Of a stretch of 42,271 bases of DNA, positions 13,469-17,567 are shown piece by piece (the stretch's first letter is position 1; every line of letters starts with the position of its first letter). The stretch is from the IMG/VR virus record IMGVR_UViG_2718218308_000003, positions 1 to 42,271 of that record, one strand, 5' to 3'. Source of the DNA: a virus (Duplodnaviria; Heunggongvirae; Uroviricota; Caudoviricetes). The position numbers and the translations under genes are program-made. The notes under the pieces are model-generated. The model made no database searches and had not been told where the DNA came from. It worked only from the letters and a program-made list of their open reading frames with translations.

Positions 13469-15304
13469 TTACCTGCCAAAGCGCGTATAGCCAACATCAT
13501 GGCTGACATCAAAACCGCTGGATCGCGTTTCCATAACCCGCATACCCGGAGGCGAATTCACAAAAGAGACCTTGATCTCACCATCAACTTTTGGCTCAGA
13601 AGCTTTGTTAATCATGAAGGGATTCGGGCCTGTAGCATCGGAGGCGTTGTTTGACTGAGCCGGATCTACCGCCGGATAAGGTGTGTATCCCCGCGCCGGT
13701 ATTCCCGTCCCATAAGCATCATAAGCACCCGCGCCCCACTGCACAGAGTTAATGGCATCGACCGTGTCACCGGAACTGTCGGTAAACCACTCAATAATTG
13801 GCTTCAGCTTGTCCCACATATTCTGAAACCACTTAACAACCGGTCCCCAGTTATTGATGACCATCCCCAGCGGCGACCAGGCAAAAACTTTCTTCAGAAG
13901 TTCCCAGCCAGCCTCAAAATAAGGACCAATGGTTTCCCAGAGTTTCTTAAAATAAGGTCCGACAACATCCCAGTTAGTGATAATTAATCCCGCAGCCAGG
14001 GCTATCGCCGTCGCAATCATGCCAATCGGCGTCATCGACATGATCCTGCTGACAATACTGATGGCACCGCCAACGCCCATCAATCCCAGTTTCAGAATCG
14101 CAAGACCGGCAGCAAGCCCGACGACGCCGCGAATAACCCGGGGATTTTCATCCGCAAACTTCGTGAATTTTTCCCCTAACTCCCCCAGCCATTGCGTGAT
14201 ATTTTTAGCGTCACCAGAAAATGCGCCGCCAATAGCTGCAAGACCGTTAGTTGCGGTCCCCGTCATTGCCTCCCACAGGTTGGACAGCGTACCAAGCTGT
14301 GCCTGAACACGTTTATTCAGGCTGGCCTGTTTATTCATCTTCTGCTGGATCTGATCGTAGCCATCCTTTCCTTTATCGATTAGTGCATTGACCACCTGAA
14401 GGGTTTCGGCATCATCACCAAATATTGCCTTAAGTACACCTGTTCGCTTAACGTCGGTCAGTTTTCGCAGCTTTGCCAGTTGCCTGAACATGTTATCAAG
14501 ACCGCCAAAACTCCCTTTGCCGTCAGTAAAATCGAGCTGCACTCCGAGTTTCTGGCGGGCCATGACTTTATTGACGTCCCTGATTTTCTTAACGCTTAAT
14601 CCGGACTGGATAACTTTTCGCAGGGCATTACCTGCCGACTCCCCGTTCATCCCCATCTGATCCATCATGACGCTGATAGGGGCAAGGCTCTGTGCAGCCT
14701 GAAGACCGTCCTTGTTCACCATCTTCAGAACAGAACTGGTTTTAGTGAAGAAGGACAACATGTTGGTATCGTCAACGCCCAGATAAAACGCCTTCTGGAT
14801 AGTGTCGAACAGCCCCATCATGTCTTCTGACGCCGTTCCGGTAGCATCCTGCATCTTTGCAGCAAACTCAGCAGCCGCTTCCGGTGTTTTTTTCAGTTGT
14901 ACCGCAAGATAAGCTGTCGCTTTACCCACACCACCAAGAATGTTTTCTGCCGGGATCCCCTGACGCACCAGCATCTGCATCATGTTCTGGAAATCAGCCG
15001 TTGTACCGGGTAGCTGGTTACCCAGGCCAATAGCCAGTTTATTGATGTCCTGAAAGCTCTTTCCGACCTCGCCGTTCGCATCCATCATGGCGACTTTCAG
15101 CCCGGTGGCGGCGTTTTCCTGATCGGCATAAGATTTCAGGGAAAGCGTCAGACCCGCTGCCAGTCCGCCACCAAGCGCCAGCCCACCCTGTGATGCTTCT
15201 TCCGCCTGGCGTTTAAATCCCCGGATTTTCTTTTGCATTTTCGACAGCGCGGGAGAAAGTCTGTCGACACCGGTGATCAACGCCTTAAGCTCAAATTCAG
15301 CCAT
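13469..15304 (-). CDS. Tail tape measure protein
   Basis: 611-aa Ala/Gly-rich protein with hydrophobic segments, located between the frameshifted chaperone ORFs and the baseplate genes. Confidence 0.75.
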   Translation of the reverse strand: MAEFELKALITGVDRLSPALSKMQKKIRGFKRQAEEASQGGLALGGGLAAGLTLSLKSYADQENAATGLKVAMMDANGEVGKSFQDINKLAIGLGNQLPGTTADFQNMMQMLVRQGIPAENILGGVGKATAYLAVQLKKTPEAAAEFAAKMQDATGTASEDMMGLFDTIQKAFYLGVDDTNMLSFFTKTSSVLKMVNKDGLQAAQSLAPISVMMDQMGMNGESAGNALRKVIQSGLSVKKIRDVNKVMARQKLGVQLDFTDGKGSFGGLDNMFRQLAKLRKLTDVKRTGVLKAIFGDDAETLQVVNALIDKGKDGYDQIQQKMNKQASLNKRVQAQLGTLSNLWEAMTGTATNGLAAIGGAFSGDAKNITQWLGELGEKFTKFADENPRVIRGVVGLAAGLAILKLGLMGVGGAISIVSRIMSMTPIGMIATAIALAAGLIITNWDVVGPYFKKLWETIGPYFEAGWELLKKVFAWSPLGMVINNWGPVVKWFQNMWDKLKPIIEWFTDSSGDTVDAINSVQWGAGAYDAYGTGIPARGYTPYPAVDPAQSNNASDATGPNPFMINKASEPKVDGEIKVSFVNSPPGMRVMETRSSGFDVSHDVGYTRFGR

Positions 15305-15479
15305 GTGTGCGTTTCTCCTGCTCTATCCTGTTTGCCTGACTGACCAGCAAGGGAATTTCACTGATCGGCATATTCAGCAATTCGAAGGGATTAATGCGCC
15401 AGTAGCTGGCGCAGTCAAAGAAGCGATCAGTGAGGTATTCAGCCGTCAGGCCTGGAGGAAAAAACCAGCCACAAGCCAC
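15297..15479 (-). CDS. Minus-1 frame extension of the tail assembly chaperone, expressed by programmed frameshifting (G/GT-like)
   Basis: Overlaps the upstream ORF in the -1 frame. The T_TTT_TTC slippery site is at 15458-15464 (minus strand). The ORF has no ATG or Shine-Dalgarno of its own and ends overlapping the tape measure start. Confidence 0.45.
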   Translation of the reverse strand: MACGWFFPPGLTAEYLTDRFFDCASYWRINPFELLNMPISEIPLLVSQANRIEQEKRTHG

Positions 15480-15715
15480 GCCGCAGCATTCAGGTCTGCC
15501 GGAGACATCTGGTCGACAGAGTTTTGCGGCACTTTCGCCAGCCGCACAATGTATTTCGATACCACATGCGCCAGAAGTCTGACGGACTCATCCTGATTCA
15601 TCTGGTAGGGATACCCCAGCTCGCGGACATCTTTCCCGGTGGGCTCATCAAACTCCAGTACGGAGAGTGTCTCGCCATGAGCGGTAATCGGTTTCTTTAA
15701 CTCAAGCTCTTTCAT
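15446..15715 (-). CDS. Tail assembly chaperone, upstream frame-0 ORF (Mu gp41-like)
   Basis: 89-aa ORF between the tail tube and tape measure genes. A canonical slippery heptamer lies seven codons before its stop. Confidence 0.55.
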   Translation of the reverse strand: MKELELKKPITAHGETLSVLEFDEPTGKDVRELGYPYQMNQDESVRLLAHVVSKYIVRLAKVPQNSVDQMSPADLNAAAWLVAGFFLQA

Positions 15716-16071
15716 TACTGGTAATCCCCTTCTTCACCGTGGAACTCAAGATCAACCGTCCCTTCTTCGGCATTATGGTTCGCTTCGCCGTGCAGCCAGG
15801 CAGACGACAGTACATAGACCTGACCGTTCGCCAGCTCGGCAGTGATGGTCATCTCATCAGACGAGGTGATTTTGCTCACCGGAAAATTCTTCGGCACCTT
15901 GAAGGTCCCTTTAACATAAGGCGCACGGTGAGTTTCCTTGCGGTCCACTGAACCGTCCAGGCCGATGATGTCATCATTGACCGTCCTGTTCATGGGCACC
16001 TCAATGCCGCCGGTCAGCGATAGCTGCTGACCGTCAATTTTGAAATAACAGGTTCCCCCGATACGGGCCAT
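15715..16071 (-). CDS. Tail tube protein (Mu gp40-like)
   Basis: 118 aa, directly downstream of the sheath gene. Confidence 0.7.
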   Translation of the reverse strand: MARIGGTCYFKIDGQQLSLTGGIEVPMNRTVNDDIIGLDGSVDRKETHRAPYVKGTFKVPKNFPVSKITSSDEMTITAELANGQVYVLSSAWLHGEANHNAEEGTVDLEFHGEEGDYQ

Positions 16072-17567
16072 TATGCAGACTCCTCTGAATACTGAAGACG
16101 GAACTGGTTAACCACGGCAAAGACACGCAACTGGTTAACATAGTCAGGCGGGAACAGCGTGTTCAGGCGGTTCGGATCGCTGGCATCACGCTCCACAACC
16201 AGGTACTGCTTAAACAGTTCGTAGTTTTCCACGATCCCCGCACGCTCAAGCTGACGGTAGGTTGCCAGCAGTTCCCCTTTGATCACCGCCGGGGTGACAA
16301 TCGCCTGACCGGGACCAAAGCGGGTACCGTCGCTGGCAAGCTTGTGACGCCCGTACTTACTGGTAATGACGGATTTCAGTTTGCGCAGTACATACGCACT
16401 GGTATGCAGCGTCTCGCTGTCGAGGTAGCTGTTATCCGCAACCCCGTAAGCGTTTTTCCTGTACGTGGTGACATCACGCTGAATGCGCAGTACCCCGCTT
16501 TCGACATACGCCGTTGCCACGCCATGAGACAGCAGGGTCTGTTGTTCGGTCATCGTGAACCGTTTCCCCTTCGGCGCAGGCAGCATACCCACCAGCTCAC
16601 CGGTCTGCGTGGGACGTGCCGGATCGTTGCGGATAAACATCGCTGCGCGGGCGGTACGGCTTGCCGCCAGCTCGTCGGCAGGCGTCTGGGTGTCTTTTTC
16701 GTACCCCGCTAGGGTAATGTGCTGCTGGTTAAACTGGTCACCTGCGGTCACCAGTTCTGACAGCGTGCCGATCTTTGCCGTATACACATGACCATACAGC
16801 TGACGCGCATAGCTCCAGCGACCGCTGGTATCGTTCATCTCGGTCACCAGCGTGTTAACGGAGGCCGTGTCGTTGAACGGCAGGCCGATATAATCAAACG
16901 GCTCATCCGCCATTGCAGCCACCGCGCCAGTGAGAACAGGAGAGCCCGTTCCGGCGGTCCCCGTCGCCACGGCAATCTGTACGCCCGCAGGCAGCACTTC
17001 GCCCCCACCAAAGCCGTAGTAATTGAGGCTGACAGGAATTTCATTCCCGCAAAGCCCCTTATGACGCGCGGTCAGCGTGACCACACCAGCCGAAGATAAA
17101 GCTGTAAACGGCAGAGTCGGAACGGCATTGATGGCATCCTGGATACTGCTGGCAATCGTCGTGACGTTATCGCCGTTGGTCACCGGAGCCTGCACGCGGG
17201 TACGTCCCACATACACATTCACCGTGCCGGTTTCGGTTGCCTCCCCGGTCACCGTCAGCGTAACCGTTGCCGCCGCGCCTGTGGCTTCCGGAACGGCAAT
17301 CACATACAGCTCGCCAAACGGGTCAGTCTGGCGATAAGCCTCGACCATACGCGCCAGCTGACTTCCCGCACCACAAATCTGGCGTGCATAGTCTGCCGAC
17401 GGCATCAGCACCAGACTGTTGGCAACAATCTCTGCACCGTTATTGGCATGACCAATCAGCAGCGATGCTCCGCTGTCCTGTGCAGTATTCGCCGCCTGGT
17501 TATCCATTTCCGCATAAAAAATCGGAACCAGCGTATTCGACGGAATGGTGTTAAAGCTTATCGTCAT
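16071..17567 (-). CDS. Contractile tail sheath protein (Mu gp39 L-like)
   Basis: 498-aa protein at the head of the tail module; size and composition typical of myovirus sheath proteins. Confidence 0.8.
   Translation of the reverse strand: MTISFNTIPSNTLVPIFYAEMDNQAANTAQDSGASLLIGHANNGAEIVANSLVLMPSADYARQICGAGSQLARMVEAYRQTDPFGELYVIAVPEATGAAATVTLTVTGEATETGTVNVYVGRTRVQAPVTNGDNVTTIASSIQDAINAVPTLPFTALSSAGVVTLTARHKGLCGNEIPVSLNYYGFGGGEVLPAGVQIAVATGTAGTGSPVLTGAVAAMADEPFDYIGLPFNDTASVNTLVTEMNDTSGRWSYARQLYGHVYTAKIGTLSELVTAGDQFNQQHITLAGYEKDTQTPADELAASRTARAAMFIRNDPARPTQTGELVGMLPAPKGKRFTMTEQQTLLSHGVATAYVESGVLRIQRDVTTYRKNAYGVADNSYLDSETLHTSAYVLRKLKSVITSKYGRHKLASDGTRFGPGQAIVTPAVIKGELLATYRQLERAGIVENYELFKQYLVVERDASDPNRLNTLFPPDYVNQLRVFAVVNQFRLQYSEESA

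What the first reader, a model, noticed from the sequence alone, without database searches (positions are those of the whole stretch)
15446..15479. Canonical -1 programmed frameshift site joining the two tail-chaperone ORFs
On the minus strand the upstream chaperone ORF contains GGT TTT TTC (plus-strand coordinates 15458-15464), a textbook X_XXY_YYZ slippery heptamer, seven codons before its stop. A -1 slip enters the overlapping ORF 15297..15479, which has no ATG or Shine-Dalgarno of its own and ends overlapping the tape measure start. This would yield a fusion of roughly 135-140 aa, the G/GT-type arrangement conserved in long-tailed phages, here in a Mu-like tail module.
Basis: partly seen in the sequence, partly recalled or inferred. 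Interest (0 to 1): 0.45.

Follow-up and report, generated by a model that had tools for sequence, protein, structure and literature searches.

The report
P2-type tail-chaperone −1 frameshift site
This is the ordinary, widely conserved ribosomal −1 frameshift that lets a long-tailed phage make a short and a long tail-assembly chaperone from one gene start; it sits in an SfV-like prophage, where public annotation omits it.

Summary
On the minus strand an in-phase T_TTT_TTC heptamer (15464..15458) lies near the 3' end of an 89-aa tail assembly chaperone gene (15715..15446, Pfam PF10109). It sits between the tail tube and tape-measure genes of an SfV/SfI-like prophage. A −1 slip gives a 139-aa fusion, and its stop overlaps the tape-measure ATG by 8 nt. 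One detail is wrong: three sense codons, not seven, follow the slip site.

One genome alone is weak evidence, because about 0.2 in-phase heptamers are expected by chance in the overlap. Comparison decides it. Of 30 homologous loci (32–99% identity), 27 keep an in-phase T_TTT_TTN at the same x-Phe-Phe. In each, a −1 extension of 49–74 aa ends at the tape-measure start.

The synonymous choices that create the T-run are fixed in 17 of 17 lineages (joint P about 1e-17). The trans-frame peptide is conserved and resembles P2 E'. It has no conserved start codon or Shine-Dalgarno.

The closest proven analogue is P2 E/E+E' (T_TTT_TTG, codon 84, 91/142 aa). Mu itself uses −2. I found no stimulatory structure at canonical spacing.

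Verdict: real, a new member of a known kind, low novelty. GenBank and RefSeq records do not annotate it.

The parts
15446..15715 (-). Zero-frame tail assembly chaperone gene (G / P2-E equivalent), 89 aa, stop TGA at 15448..15446.
   Evidence: ORF list. Pfam PF10109 Phage_TAC_7 E=3.6e-16. phrog_166 tail protein E=2e-23. AlphaFold2 model pLDDT 97; its best BFVD fold matches are tape-measure or tail assembly chaperones, and Mu FS-gp41 ranks 9th with a weak score.
15458..15464 (-). Slippery heptamer T_TTT_TTC. The P-site codon TTT is Phe85 and the A-site codon TTC is Phe86.
   Evidence: Sequence and phase. The same in-phase T_TTT_TTN is found in 27 of 30 homologous loci. Synonymous positions are fixed in 17 of 17 lineages.
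15297..15458 (-). −1 frame extension (T / P2-E' equivalent): 53 codons, PPGLTAEYLTDRFFDCASYWRINPFELLNMPISEIPLLVSQANRIEQEKRTHG, plus stop TGA at 15299..15297. The fusion CDS is join(15715..15458, 15458..15297) and encodes 139 aa.
   Evidence: Translation. phrog_32181 E=2e-41. The peptide is conserved across lineages. hhalign to P2 E' gives E=5e-5, probability 67%. There is no conserved start codon or SD.
13469..15304 (-). Tape measure protein gene (611 aa). Its ATG at 15304 overlaps the −1 ORF stop by 8 nt (ATGGCTGA).
   Evidence: Pfam PF10145 and phrog_28/17727. The same 8-nt overlap is seen in P2 and most homologous loci.
15715..16071 (-). Tail tube gene immediately upstream. Its stop overlaps the chaperone ATG (TAATG).
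   Evidence: Pfam PF10618 Tail_tube E=2e-33 and phrog_185.
15395..15413 (-). Hairpin UGCGCCAG-CUA-CUGGCGCA inside the T segment, 44 nt 3' of the heptamer. It is conserved at synonymous sites in the SfV-like clade. Its role is unknown and it is probably not a canonical frameshift stimulator.
   Evidence: Fold. The stem is invariant in 11 sequences. All 4 stem codons that could vary synonymously are codon-invariant, against 8 of 67 such codons elsewhere. Its stability is unexceptional for the locus.

Best explanation
This is a programmed −1 ribosomal frameshift in the tail assembly chaperone gene of an SfV-like temperate myophage with a Mu-like tail.

Most ribosomes translate the 89-aa chaperone and stop at TGA (15448..15446). 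A minority hold tRNA-Phe on TTT in the P site and on TTC in the A site of U_UUU_UUC (15464..15458). These slip one base 5', with both tRNAs re-pairing with UUU. They then read 53 further codons in the −1 frame and terminate 8 nt inside the tape-measure gene, giving a 139-aa fusion.

By analogy with lambda G/GT and P2 E/E+E', the shared N-terminal domain coats the tape measure protein. The rare C-terminal T/E'-like domain recruits the tail tube protein. The fixed short:long ratio is needed for tail assembly, and neither protein ends up in the virion.

Shown here: the site, its phase, the frames, the deep conservation of the heptamer and of the trans-frame peptide, and the lack of independent initiation signals. 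Inferred: that slippage is ribosomal, its efficiency, and the chaperone roles.
For: (1) Anatomy. The order sheath, tube, PF10109 chaperone, −1 ORF, tape measure is present, with an in-phase T_TTT_TTC and an 8-nt stop/start overlap.

(2) Conservation. I examined 30 homologous loci at 32–99% chaperone identity, from phage records, GTDB genomes and metagenomes.
- 27 have an in-phase T_TTT_TT(C/T/G) at the same x-F-F.
- In these, the −1 extension is 49–74 aa. It ends within a few nt of the tape-measure start wherever that start is visible.
- The zero-frame tail after the site varies from 2 to 25 unconserved codons.

(3) Synonymous choice. Given the amino acids, the codon choice that makes the T-run (NNT TTT) is found in 17 of 17 lineages, including hosts at 62–66% GC where TTT is 12–24% of Phe codons. 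The joint probability is about 1e-17.

(4) Linkage of slipperiness and frame.
- L112 has lost F-F and instead carries A_AAA_AAG at the last two sense codons.
- Phage IPK encodes F-F as the non-slippery GGC TTC TTC. There the −1 frame is closed by two stops until 4 codons before the stop.

(5) The −1 peptide is conserved, with W and R at 90% or more and a (F/Y)W(R/K)xxPxE…QxxRI motif. It aligns with P2 E' and the Mu −2-frame peptide.

(6) P2, whose record annotates a −1 translational frameshift, has GTC GGT TTT TTG at codon 84, products of 91 and 142 aa, and the same 8-nt overlap (PMC3091744).

(7) H_HH.U_UU.Y motifs are listed among the most efficient −1 heptamers in E. coli, in reporters carrying the IS3 pseudoknot stimulator (PMC4066793).

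(8) The T-run is always in ribosomal X_XXY_YYZ phase. The preceding-codon T is kept even when both Phe codons are TTT. RNA-polymerase slippage would not require this.
Against: - There is no experimental evidence for the fusion protein in this phage group, and public records annotate only the 89-aa product.
- The bare UUUUUUC gave only 0.12% frameshifting in an E. coli reporter without a stimulator (PMC4066793 Table S3). I found no stimulatory structure or SD-like element at canonical spacing, so the efficiency is unexplained.
- The T segment does not reach any Pfam model, including PF06528. BLASTP against P2 E+E' is not significant, E=0.54.
- The lineages are related, so 1e-17 overstates independence.
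- All sites are homopolymer runs, so transcriptional slippage giving an identical protein is not excluded.
Confidence: 0.86

Rival explanations
1. Transcriptional slippage. RNA polymerase occasionally inserts one extra U in the U6 run, and standard translation of that mRNA gives the same G-F-F-P-P… fusion.
For: Every site found is a homopolymer: T6, T7, or A6 in L112. The insertion product would be identical in sequence to the −1 frameshift product (inference). The bare heptamer is a weak ribosomal shifter at 0.12%.
Against: The run is always in X_XXY_YYZ phase, with the preceding-codon T conserved in 17 of 17 lineages even where TTT TTT already gives T6. Polymerase slippage does not require this. 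Six residues is short for efficient E. coli RNAP slippage (my own knowledge of the slippage literature, not tested here). The homologous P2 site is annotated and cited as a translational frameshift (PMC3091744, PMC5009743).
Confidence: 0.07
2. The −1 ORF (15479..15297) is an independent small gene, initiated at its GTG and giving a 60-aa protein. No recoding is involved.
For: ORF finders and RAST list it as a separate 60-aa ORF. A PHROG family, phrog_32181, consists of such calls.
Against: There is no SD-like motif upstream of the GTG. Of 18 lineages, 9 have no ATG/GTG/TTG anywhere between the upstream −1-frame stop and 15 codons past the heptamer, and none has an SD. The conserved part of the peptide begins only after the heptamer.
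Confidence: 0.02
3. Coincidence. The T-run is a by-product of a conserved Phe-Phe in the chaperone, and the downstream stretch is a non-coding spacer before the tape-measure gene.
For: F85 and F86 are 90% or more conserved at protein level. One in-phase heptamer in the overlap is not improbable, with about 0.19 expected.
Against: The synonymous choices are fixed. The −1 frame stays open for 49–74 codons, ends at the tape-measure start wherever that start is visible, and encodes a conserved peptide. Where F-F is encoded non-slippery, or is lost, the frame arrangement changes accordingly.
Confidence: 0.03
4. A Mu-type −2 (or +1) frameshift rather than −1.
For: Mu, whose tail module this resembles, is reported to use −2 (PMC2628397, PMC5009743). 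The Mu T-like peptide lies in the +1/−2 frame. One metagenomic relative, L116, has its T domain in the +1/−2 frame.
Against: In the window the +1/−2 frame closes just past the chaperone stop (open stretch of 16 codons ending 7 nt beyond it). Only the −1 frame runs to the tape-measure start.
Confidence: 0.01

Closest known systems
Phage P2 E / E+E' −1 translational frameshift (Christie et al. 2002; annotated in NC_001895)
   Same: - Both short proteins hit PF10109.
- The slippery T6 run is in the same phase and at the same position (P2 GGT TTT TTG, codon 84; here GGT TTT TTC, codon 85), following a conserved V/A-G-F.
- Product sizes match: 91/142 aa against 89/139 aa.
- The −1 ORF ends with an 8-nt overlap of the tape-measure start.
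- The extension shares the hW..P.EL…M.h.E…A.R pattern.

   Different: - The last base of the heptamer differs (C here, G in P2).
- The zero-frame tail is 3 codons here and 6 in P2.
- The E' Pfam model PF06528 does not detect this extension, and pairwise BLASTP is not significant.
- The surrounding tail genes are Mu-like (gp38/DUF2635, L, M, N), not P2-like.
Phage lambda G / GT −1 frameshift (Levin, Hendrix and Casjens 1993; Xu, Hendrix and Duda 2004, 2013, 2014)
   Same: It has the same genomic logic: two overlapping ORFs between the major tail gene and the tape-measure gene, a −1 slip near the end of the first, and a low-abundance fusion. The chaperone roles inferred here come from lambda (PMC5009743).
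   Different: Lambda uses G_GGA_AAG and belongs to a different chaperone sequence family. It is a siphovirus, so T binds gpV rather than a contractile-tail tube protein. I did not detect sequence homology to it here.
Phage Mu gp41 / FS-gp41 (−2 frameshift)
   Same: The tail module is homologous: sheath L, tube M, gp38 and N equivalents. The chaperone fold matches the BFVD model of Mu FS-gp41 only weakly (rank 9, E=0.047). The Mu trans-frame peptide aligns with this T segment.
   Different: Mu gp41 is 144 aa. Its T-like peptide lies in the +1/−2 frame, and no T-run lies near the Mu gp41 stop; a G-run there is my candidate for the reported −2 shift site (PMC2628397, PMC5009743). Here the shift is −1 at a T-run.
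E. coli dnaX and IS3/IS911-type −1 frameshift signals
   Same: They use an X_XXY_YYZ heptamer with tandem tRNA slippage.
   Different: Those depend on an upstream SD-like element and/or a hairpin or pseudoknot 5–9 nt downstream. None is present or conserved here at that spacing.

Membership tests
G/GT-type programmed frameshift of tailed-phage tail assembly chaperones (Xu, Hendrix and Duda 2004) | The gene pair lies between the major tail (tube) gene and the tape-measure gene. | tested here: met
   Tube 15715–16071, chaperone 15446–15715 and tape measure 13469–15304, all on the minus strand.
G/GT-type programmed frameshift of tailed-phage tail assembly chaperones (Xu, Hendrix and Duda 2004) | A second ORF overlaps the 3' end of the first in another frame and lacks its own initiation signals. 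| tested here: met
   The −1 ORF is 15479..15297, with no ATG and no SD. Start codons are absent in 9 of 18 related lineages.
G/GT-type programmed frameshift of tailed-phage tail assembly chaperones (Xu, Hendrix and Duda 2004) | A slippery sequence lies in the correct phase within the overlap. | tested here: met
   T_TTT_TTC at 15464..15458, P-site codon 85.
G/GT-type programmed frameshift of tailed-phage tail assembly chaperones (Xu, Hendrix and Duda 2004) | The shift site and the trans-frame peptide are conserved among homologues. | tested here: met
   27 of 30 loci are canonical. The 3 exceptions have a relocated site or a changed frame. Synonymous fixation is 17 of 17.
G/GT-type programmed frameshift of tailed-phage tail assembly chaperones (Xu, Hendrix and Duda 2004) | Two protein products are demonstrated, and the frameshift is required for tail assembly. 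| not testable with these tools
   This needs proteomics or genetics. The database 'fusions' P0001–P0006 are indel-ridden singleton contigs, not evidence.
P2 E / E+E' family (Pfam PF10109 + PF06528) | The N-terminal domain matches PF10109 Phage_TAC_7. | tested here: met
   E=3.6e-16, 59 bits against a 25-bit cutoff. P2 E gives 1.4e-12.
P2 E / E+E' family (Pfam PF10109 + PF06528) | The frameshift extension matches PF06528 Phage_P2_GpE. | tested here: not met
   There is no hit at E≤10 for the window peptide, and none at E≤1 for any of the 18 related peptides. Only a weak profile–sequence match to P2 E' exists over exactly that region: hhalign E=5e-5, probability 67%.
P2 E / E+E' family (Pfam PF10109 + PF06528) | A T6 slippery run follows the conserved G-F at about codon 84–85, and the −1 stop overlaps the tape-measure start. 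| tested here: met
Mu gp41 −2 frameshift | The extension is encoded in the +1/−2 frame. | tested here: not met
   In the window the +1/−2 frame closes just past the chaperone stop, after an open stretch of 16 codons.
Stimulator-dependent bacterial −1 PRF (dnaX / IS3 type) | A conserved hairpin or pseudoknot 5–9 nt downstream, or an SD-like element 6–17 nt upstream. | tested here: not met
   The immediate downstream 41-nt windows give dG −6.4 kcal/mol, the 69th percentile of the locus. The 4-bp hairpin at a 5-nt spacer is broken in relatives. I saw no SD-like motif upstream by inspection. Rfam found nothing relevant.

The most novel reading that the evidence does not exclude
The synonymously frozen 8-bp hairpin 44 nt downstream of the heptamer (15413..15395) could be a distal frameshift modulator. 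Other lineages carry strong hairpins at variable distances of 20–90 nt (PG1, L113, L114). Such a hairpin might act by pausing a leading ribosome so that a queued ribosome dwells on the weak U_UUU_UUC. That would explain how a motif giving about 0.1% on its own reaches a useful G:GT ratio without a canonical stimulator.
Probability: 0.08. Interest if true: 0.5.

Novelty: new member of a known kind. Interest (0 to 1): 0.15.

Why it matters
The main value is to annotation. A 511-nt segment spanning this site matches at least one place in 1,062 of 5,426 complete E. coli genomes, and it is also present in the Shigella serotype-converting phages SfV, SfI and SfII. In the SfV, SfI and RefSeq E. coli records I inspected, only the 89-aa protein is annotated. 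A 141-nt 'gap' is left, or in one record a spurious 60-aa ORF, where an essential 139-aa tail assembly protein is probably encoded.

The comparative set gives a clean illustration that the shift site, not only the Phe-Phe motif, is under selection. It also shows that the site can relocate (A_AAA_AAG in L112) or possibly change direction (L116). None of this changes the understanding of phage tail assembly or recoding.

Tried and rejected
- The search for related loci with diverse chaperone alignments failed for lack of a conserved 7–10-residue stretch. The single-protein scans gave near-identical viral loci and only 12 genome loci. I obtained diversity instead from tblastn of phage records and from contig look-ups of 50%-cluster representatives.
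- The primary papers, Xu et al. 2004 and Christie et al. 2002, are not held. I therefore could not check whether SfV is already listed there. Three of the literature searches targeted this phage group and found no paper noting the site.
- The 137–139-aa 'fused' database proteins P0001–P0003, and P0004–P0006, are noisy singleton contigs that join frames at different places. I rejected them as evidence.
- A downstream stimulatory structure is not supported.
  - The 133-nt fold has z = −3.4, but its long-range stems are only weakly supported and are broken in relatives.
  - The window's best hairpin is no more stable than those of random 150-nt segments of the locus, rank p=0.47.
  - Across 16 lineages the signal (Fisher p=0.0035) comes from three loci only.
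- Rfam gave nothing relevant. PDB sequence and fold searches found no solved homologue. Pfam found nothing for the T segment.
- L105 (Omnitrophota) is a spurious pattern match.

Full report
**What is in the sequence.** Read on the minus strand, the region is ...GCG TGG CTT GTG GCT GGT TTT TTC CTC CAG GCC TGA CGG CTG AAT.... The ORF 15715..15446 encodes 89 aa ending ...WLVAGFFLQA*. TTTTTTC occupies 15464..15458 in X_XXY_YYZ phase, with TTT as codon 85 and TTC as codon 86. Three sense codons, not seven, separate the A-site codon from TGA. The −1 frame is open from 41 codons upstream of the heptamer to a TGA at 15299..15297, inside the sequence ATGGCTGA whose ATG (15304) starts the next gene. A −1 slip gives a 139-aa protein: residues 1–86 of the short product plus PPGLTAEYLTDRFFDCASYWRINPFELLNMPISEIPLLVSQANRIEQEKRTHG. 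The +1/−2 frame closes just past the chaperone stop.

**Context.** The window is an SfV/SfI/SfII-like temperate myophage of Shigella/E. coli, 98% nucleotide identity over 4.2 kb. The minus-strand genes are:
- tail sheath, 16071–17567 (PF04984/PF17482);
- tail tube, 15715–16071 (PF10618);
- the 89-aa protein (PF10109 'Phage tail assembly chaperone proteins, E, or 41 or 14', E=3.6e-16; phrog_166);
- the −1 ORF (no Pfam hit; phrog_32181, E=2e-41);
- the 611-aa tape measure protein (PF10145; phrog_28).

An AlphaFold2 model of the 89-aa protein is confident (pLDDT 97). It has no solved homologue. It does match predicted tape-measure and tail assembly chaperones in BFVD; UniProt 'FS-gp41' of Mu appears among them only weakly, at rank 9 with E=0.047.

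**Chance.** TTTTTTC occurs 17 times in the window against about 11 expected. In-phase XXXYYYZ heptamers occur at 0.0042 per codon in the window's ORFs, the random expectation. About 0.19 would therefore fall by chance in the 46 codons where both frames are open. The single-genome observation is only suggestive.

**Comparative test.** I assembled 30 homologous loci:
- the window;
- nine phage or plasmid-prophage records at 32–78% chaperone identity: AH07, EPP-1, BgVeeders33, SfIV, ST64B, phiP27, DVM-2008, PG1 and a Haematospirillum element;
- phage IPK;
- nine species-representative genomes;
- ten metagenomic or genomic contigs encoding 36–55%-identical cluster representatives.

In 27 of the 30, an in-phase T_TTT_TT(C/T/G) sits at the same x-Phe-Phe, P-site codon 81–91. 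From it the −1 frame runs 49–74 codons. It stops within a few nucleotides of the tape-measure start wherever that start is visible, most often with the same 8-nt ATGnnTGA overlap. The zero-frame tail after the site is 2–25 codons long and unconserved.

The three exceptions are informative.
- L112 has lost Phe-Phe (…GMFGQKK*) and carries A_AAA_AAG as its last two sense codons. This leads into the same conserved −1 peptide.
- Phage IPK encodes Gly-Phe-Phe as the non-slippery GGC TTC TTC. There the −1 frame contains two stops and opens only four codons before the chaperone stop. The record is flagged UNVERIFIED.
- L116 keeps T_TTT_TTC, but its T-like peptide lies in the +1/−2 frame. This is either a Mu-like −2 arrangement or an assembly indel.

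So slipperiness and frame openness co-vary, which protein-level conservation of Phe-Phe alone would not produce.

**Synonymous-site test.** Conditioning on the amino acids, I asked how often local codon usage would give NNT before the first Phe and TTT for it. The per-lineage probabilities are 0.013–0.38, lowest in hosts at 62–66% GC where TTT is only 12–24% of Phe codons. All 17 lineages have the slippery choice, for a joint probability of about 1e-17. This overstates significance to the extent that the lineages are not independent. However, at 36–55% protein identity synonymous sites are saturated. The preceding-codon T is retained even where both Phe codons are TTT (SfIV, ST64B, L110). The requirement is therefore the X_XXY_YYZ phase rather than mere run length. 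That favours ribosomal over RNA-polymerase slippage.

**The trans-frame peptide.** The −1 peptides align with W and R at 90% or more conserved and a shared pattern …hhDhhhxhAx(F/Y)W(R/K)hxPxEhxxhxhxxhxhhxxQxxRI…. P2 E' and the Mu −2-frame peptide fit the same alignment. A profile of 18 of these peptides matches P2 E' over exactly the 36 residues covered by Pfam PF06528: hhalign E=5e-5, probability 67%. PF06528 itself does not detect any of them, and BLASTP of the two fusions is not significant although collinear across the junction.

**Independent initiation.** Of 18 lineages, 9 have no ATG/GTG/TTG anywhere between the upstream −1-frame stop and 15 codons past the heptamer. None has an SD-like motif. 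The nominal GTG at 15479 is therefore not a conserved start.

**Closest proven analogue.** The P2 record annotates E (91 aa), E+E' (142 aa, 'shares amino terminus with gpE; −1 frameshift') and the shift site. The P2 sequence is GTC GGT TTT TTG with P-site codon 84, and the E+E' stop overlaps gene T by 8 nt (ATGAGTAA). The TTTTTTG site and both products are described in PMC3091744. The window has the same architecture: GCT GGT TTT TTC, codon 85, products of 89 and 139 aa, and ATGGCTGA.

Mu, whose sheath, tube, gp38 and N genes this module resembles, is reported to use a −2 shift (PMC2628397, PMC5009743). Its T-like peptide is indeed in the +1/−2 frame, and there is no T-run near the gp41 stop, only a G-run. 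'Mu-like tail module' is correct, but the recoding site is of the P2 type.

**Stimulators.** Nothing in Rfam is relevant. The windows immediately downstream, at spacers of 0–7 nt, fold to only −6.4 kcal/mol, the 69th percentile of the locus. A 4-bp hairpin at a 5-nt spacer is broken in close relatives. The long-range stems of the 133-nt fold (z = −3.4) show little covariation and several breaks.

One element stands out: UGCGCCAG-NUA-CUGGCGCA at 15413..15395, 44 nt after the heptamer. Its stem is invariant in 11 SfV-like sequences. All four stem codons that could vary synonymously are frozen, against 8 of 67 elsewhere in the two reading frames (hypergeometric P about 5e-4, my arithmetic). There is no covariation, however. 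Its stability is ordinary for the locus, rank p=0.47, and 44 nt is far outside the spacing at which known stimulators act.

Across 16 lineages, strong downstream hairpins occur in some (PG1, L113, L114; each p<0.01) but not most. Bare UUUUUUC gave 0.12% frameshifting in an E. coli reporter, rising to 0.9% and 7.6% with IS911 and IS3 stimulators (PMC4066793 Table S3). How this class of sites reaches a useful level therefore remains open. The review PMC5009743 states that P2-type efficiency is 2–3 times that of lambda.

**Status in databases and literature.** The SfV, SfI and RefSeq E. coli records I inspected annotate only the 89-aa 'phage tail assembly protein' and leave 141 nt unannotated before the tape-measure gene. 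One phage record calls the −1 ORF a separate hypothetical protein. A 511-nt segment spanning the site matches at least one place in 1,062 of 5,426 complete E. coli genomes. The site is identical in SfV, SfI and SfII-type records and in at least 78 of 80 IMG/VR relatives. Three of the literature searches targeted this phage group and found no paper noting the site. Xu et al. 2004, which may list it, could not be read.

**Mechanism and function.** Shown here are the in-phase slippery heptamer, the frames, the deep conservation of site and trans-frame peptide, and the absence of independent initiation. Inferred from lambda and P2 (PMC5009743) are three points. tRNA-Phe pairs slip −1 in tandem on U_UUU_UUC. 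A minority of ribosomes thereby make the 139-aa fusion. The shared domain coats the tape measure protein while the extension recruits tube subunits, and both leave before the virion is complete.

My confidence that this is a functional programmed −1 ribosomal frameshift is about 0.86. The main residual alternative is transcriptional slippage yielding the same protein.

**Verdict.** It is a textbook feature: a new, unannotated member of the P2 E/E+E' branch of the G/GT frameshift class. Interest is low.

Noticed in passing
window 15395-15413 (minus strand): An 8-bp GC-rich hairpin, UGCGCCAG-CUA-CUGGCGCA, lies inside the T segment 44 nt 3' of the heptamer. Its stem is invariant in 11 SfV-like sequences. 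All 4 synonymously variable stem codons are frozen, against 8 of 67 elsewhere. There is no covariation, its stability is ordinary for the locus, and its role is unknown.
   Followed up: partly
L112 (JGI 3300047544 contig) 838-874: In this relative the conserved Phe-Phe is lost (…GMFGQKK*). An in-phase A_AAA_AAG at the last two sense codons replaces the T-run and leads into the same conserved −1 peptide. The shift site has apparently relocated.
   Followed up: partly
L116 (ENA ERZ27253056 k141_1703408) 1455-1630: T_TTT_TTC is kept, but the −1 frame stops after 6 codons and the conserved T-like peptide lies in the +1/−2 frame. This is either a Mu-like −2 arrangement or a 1-nt assembly error.
   Followed up: partly
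L091 (Paraburkholderia phage IPK, PV588664, UNVERIFIED) 1416-1500: Gly-Phe-Phe is encoded by the non-slippery GGC TTC TTC. The −1 frame has two stops and opens only 4 codons before the chaperone stop (…GAG GGC GCG TAA). The shift site, if any, must be elsewhere, possibly G_GGC. Alternatively the record has errors.
   Followed up: partly
L107 ~1525-1550 and L114 ~1310-1340: Two related metagenomic lineages carry a strong hairpin over the G-W-A-W-R-M-x-P-A codons of the T segment. By eye, one pair changes U-A to G-C between them (compensatory) and one changes G-U to G-C.
   Followed up: no
window 6716-6722 (+ strand), end of ORF 5580-6728: An in-phase A_AAA_AAC lies one codon before the stop of an Acyl_transf_3 gene (PF01757, probably an O-antigen acetyltransferase cargo gene), with a 36-codon −1 extension. 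It is the only other heptamer in the window whose −1 frame outruns the zero frame by more than 20 codons. The region is AT-rich, so this is probably chance.
   Followed up: partly
window 4376-5407 (+ strand): A DDE_3/HTH transposase ORF, which looks IS630-like, lies next to the acyltransferase gene within the prophage's cargo region.
   Followed up: no
proteins P0131, P0133, P0146, P0150, P0185, P0196, P0208: Some PF10109 cluster representatives are 174–221 aa with two matched stretches, which suggests tandemly duplicated or fused chaperone domains in some lineages.
   Followed up: no
proteins P0001-P0006: Database 'full-length fusion' proteins of 107–139 aa come from singleton Logan/ENA contigs with several indels that join the two frames at different points. 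They are assembly noise that mimics the frameshift product.
   Followed up: yes
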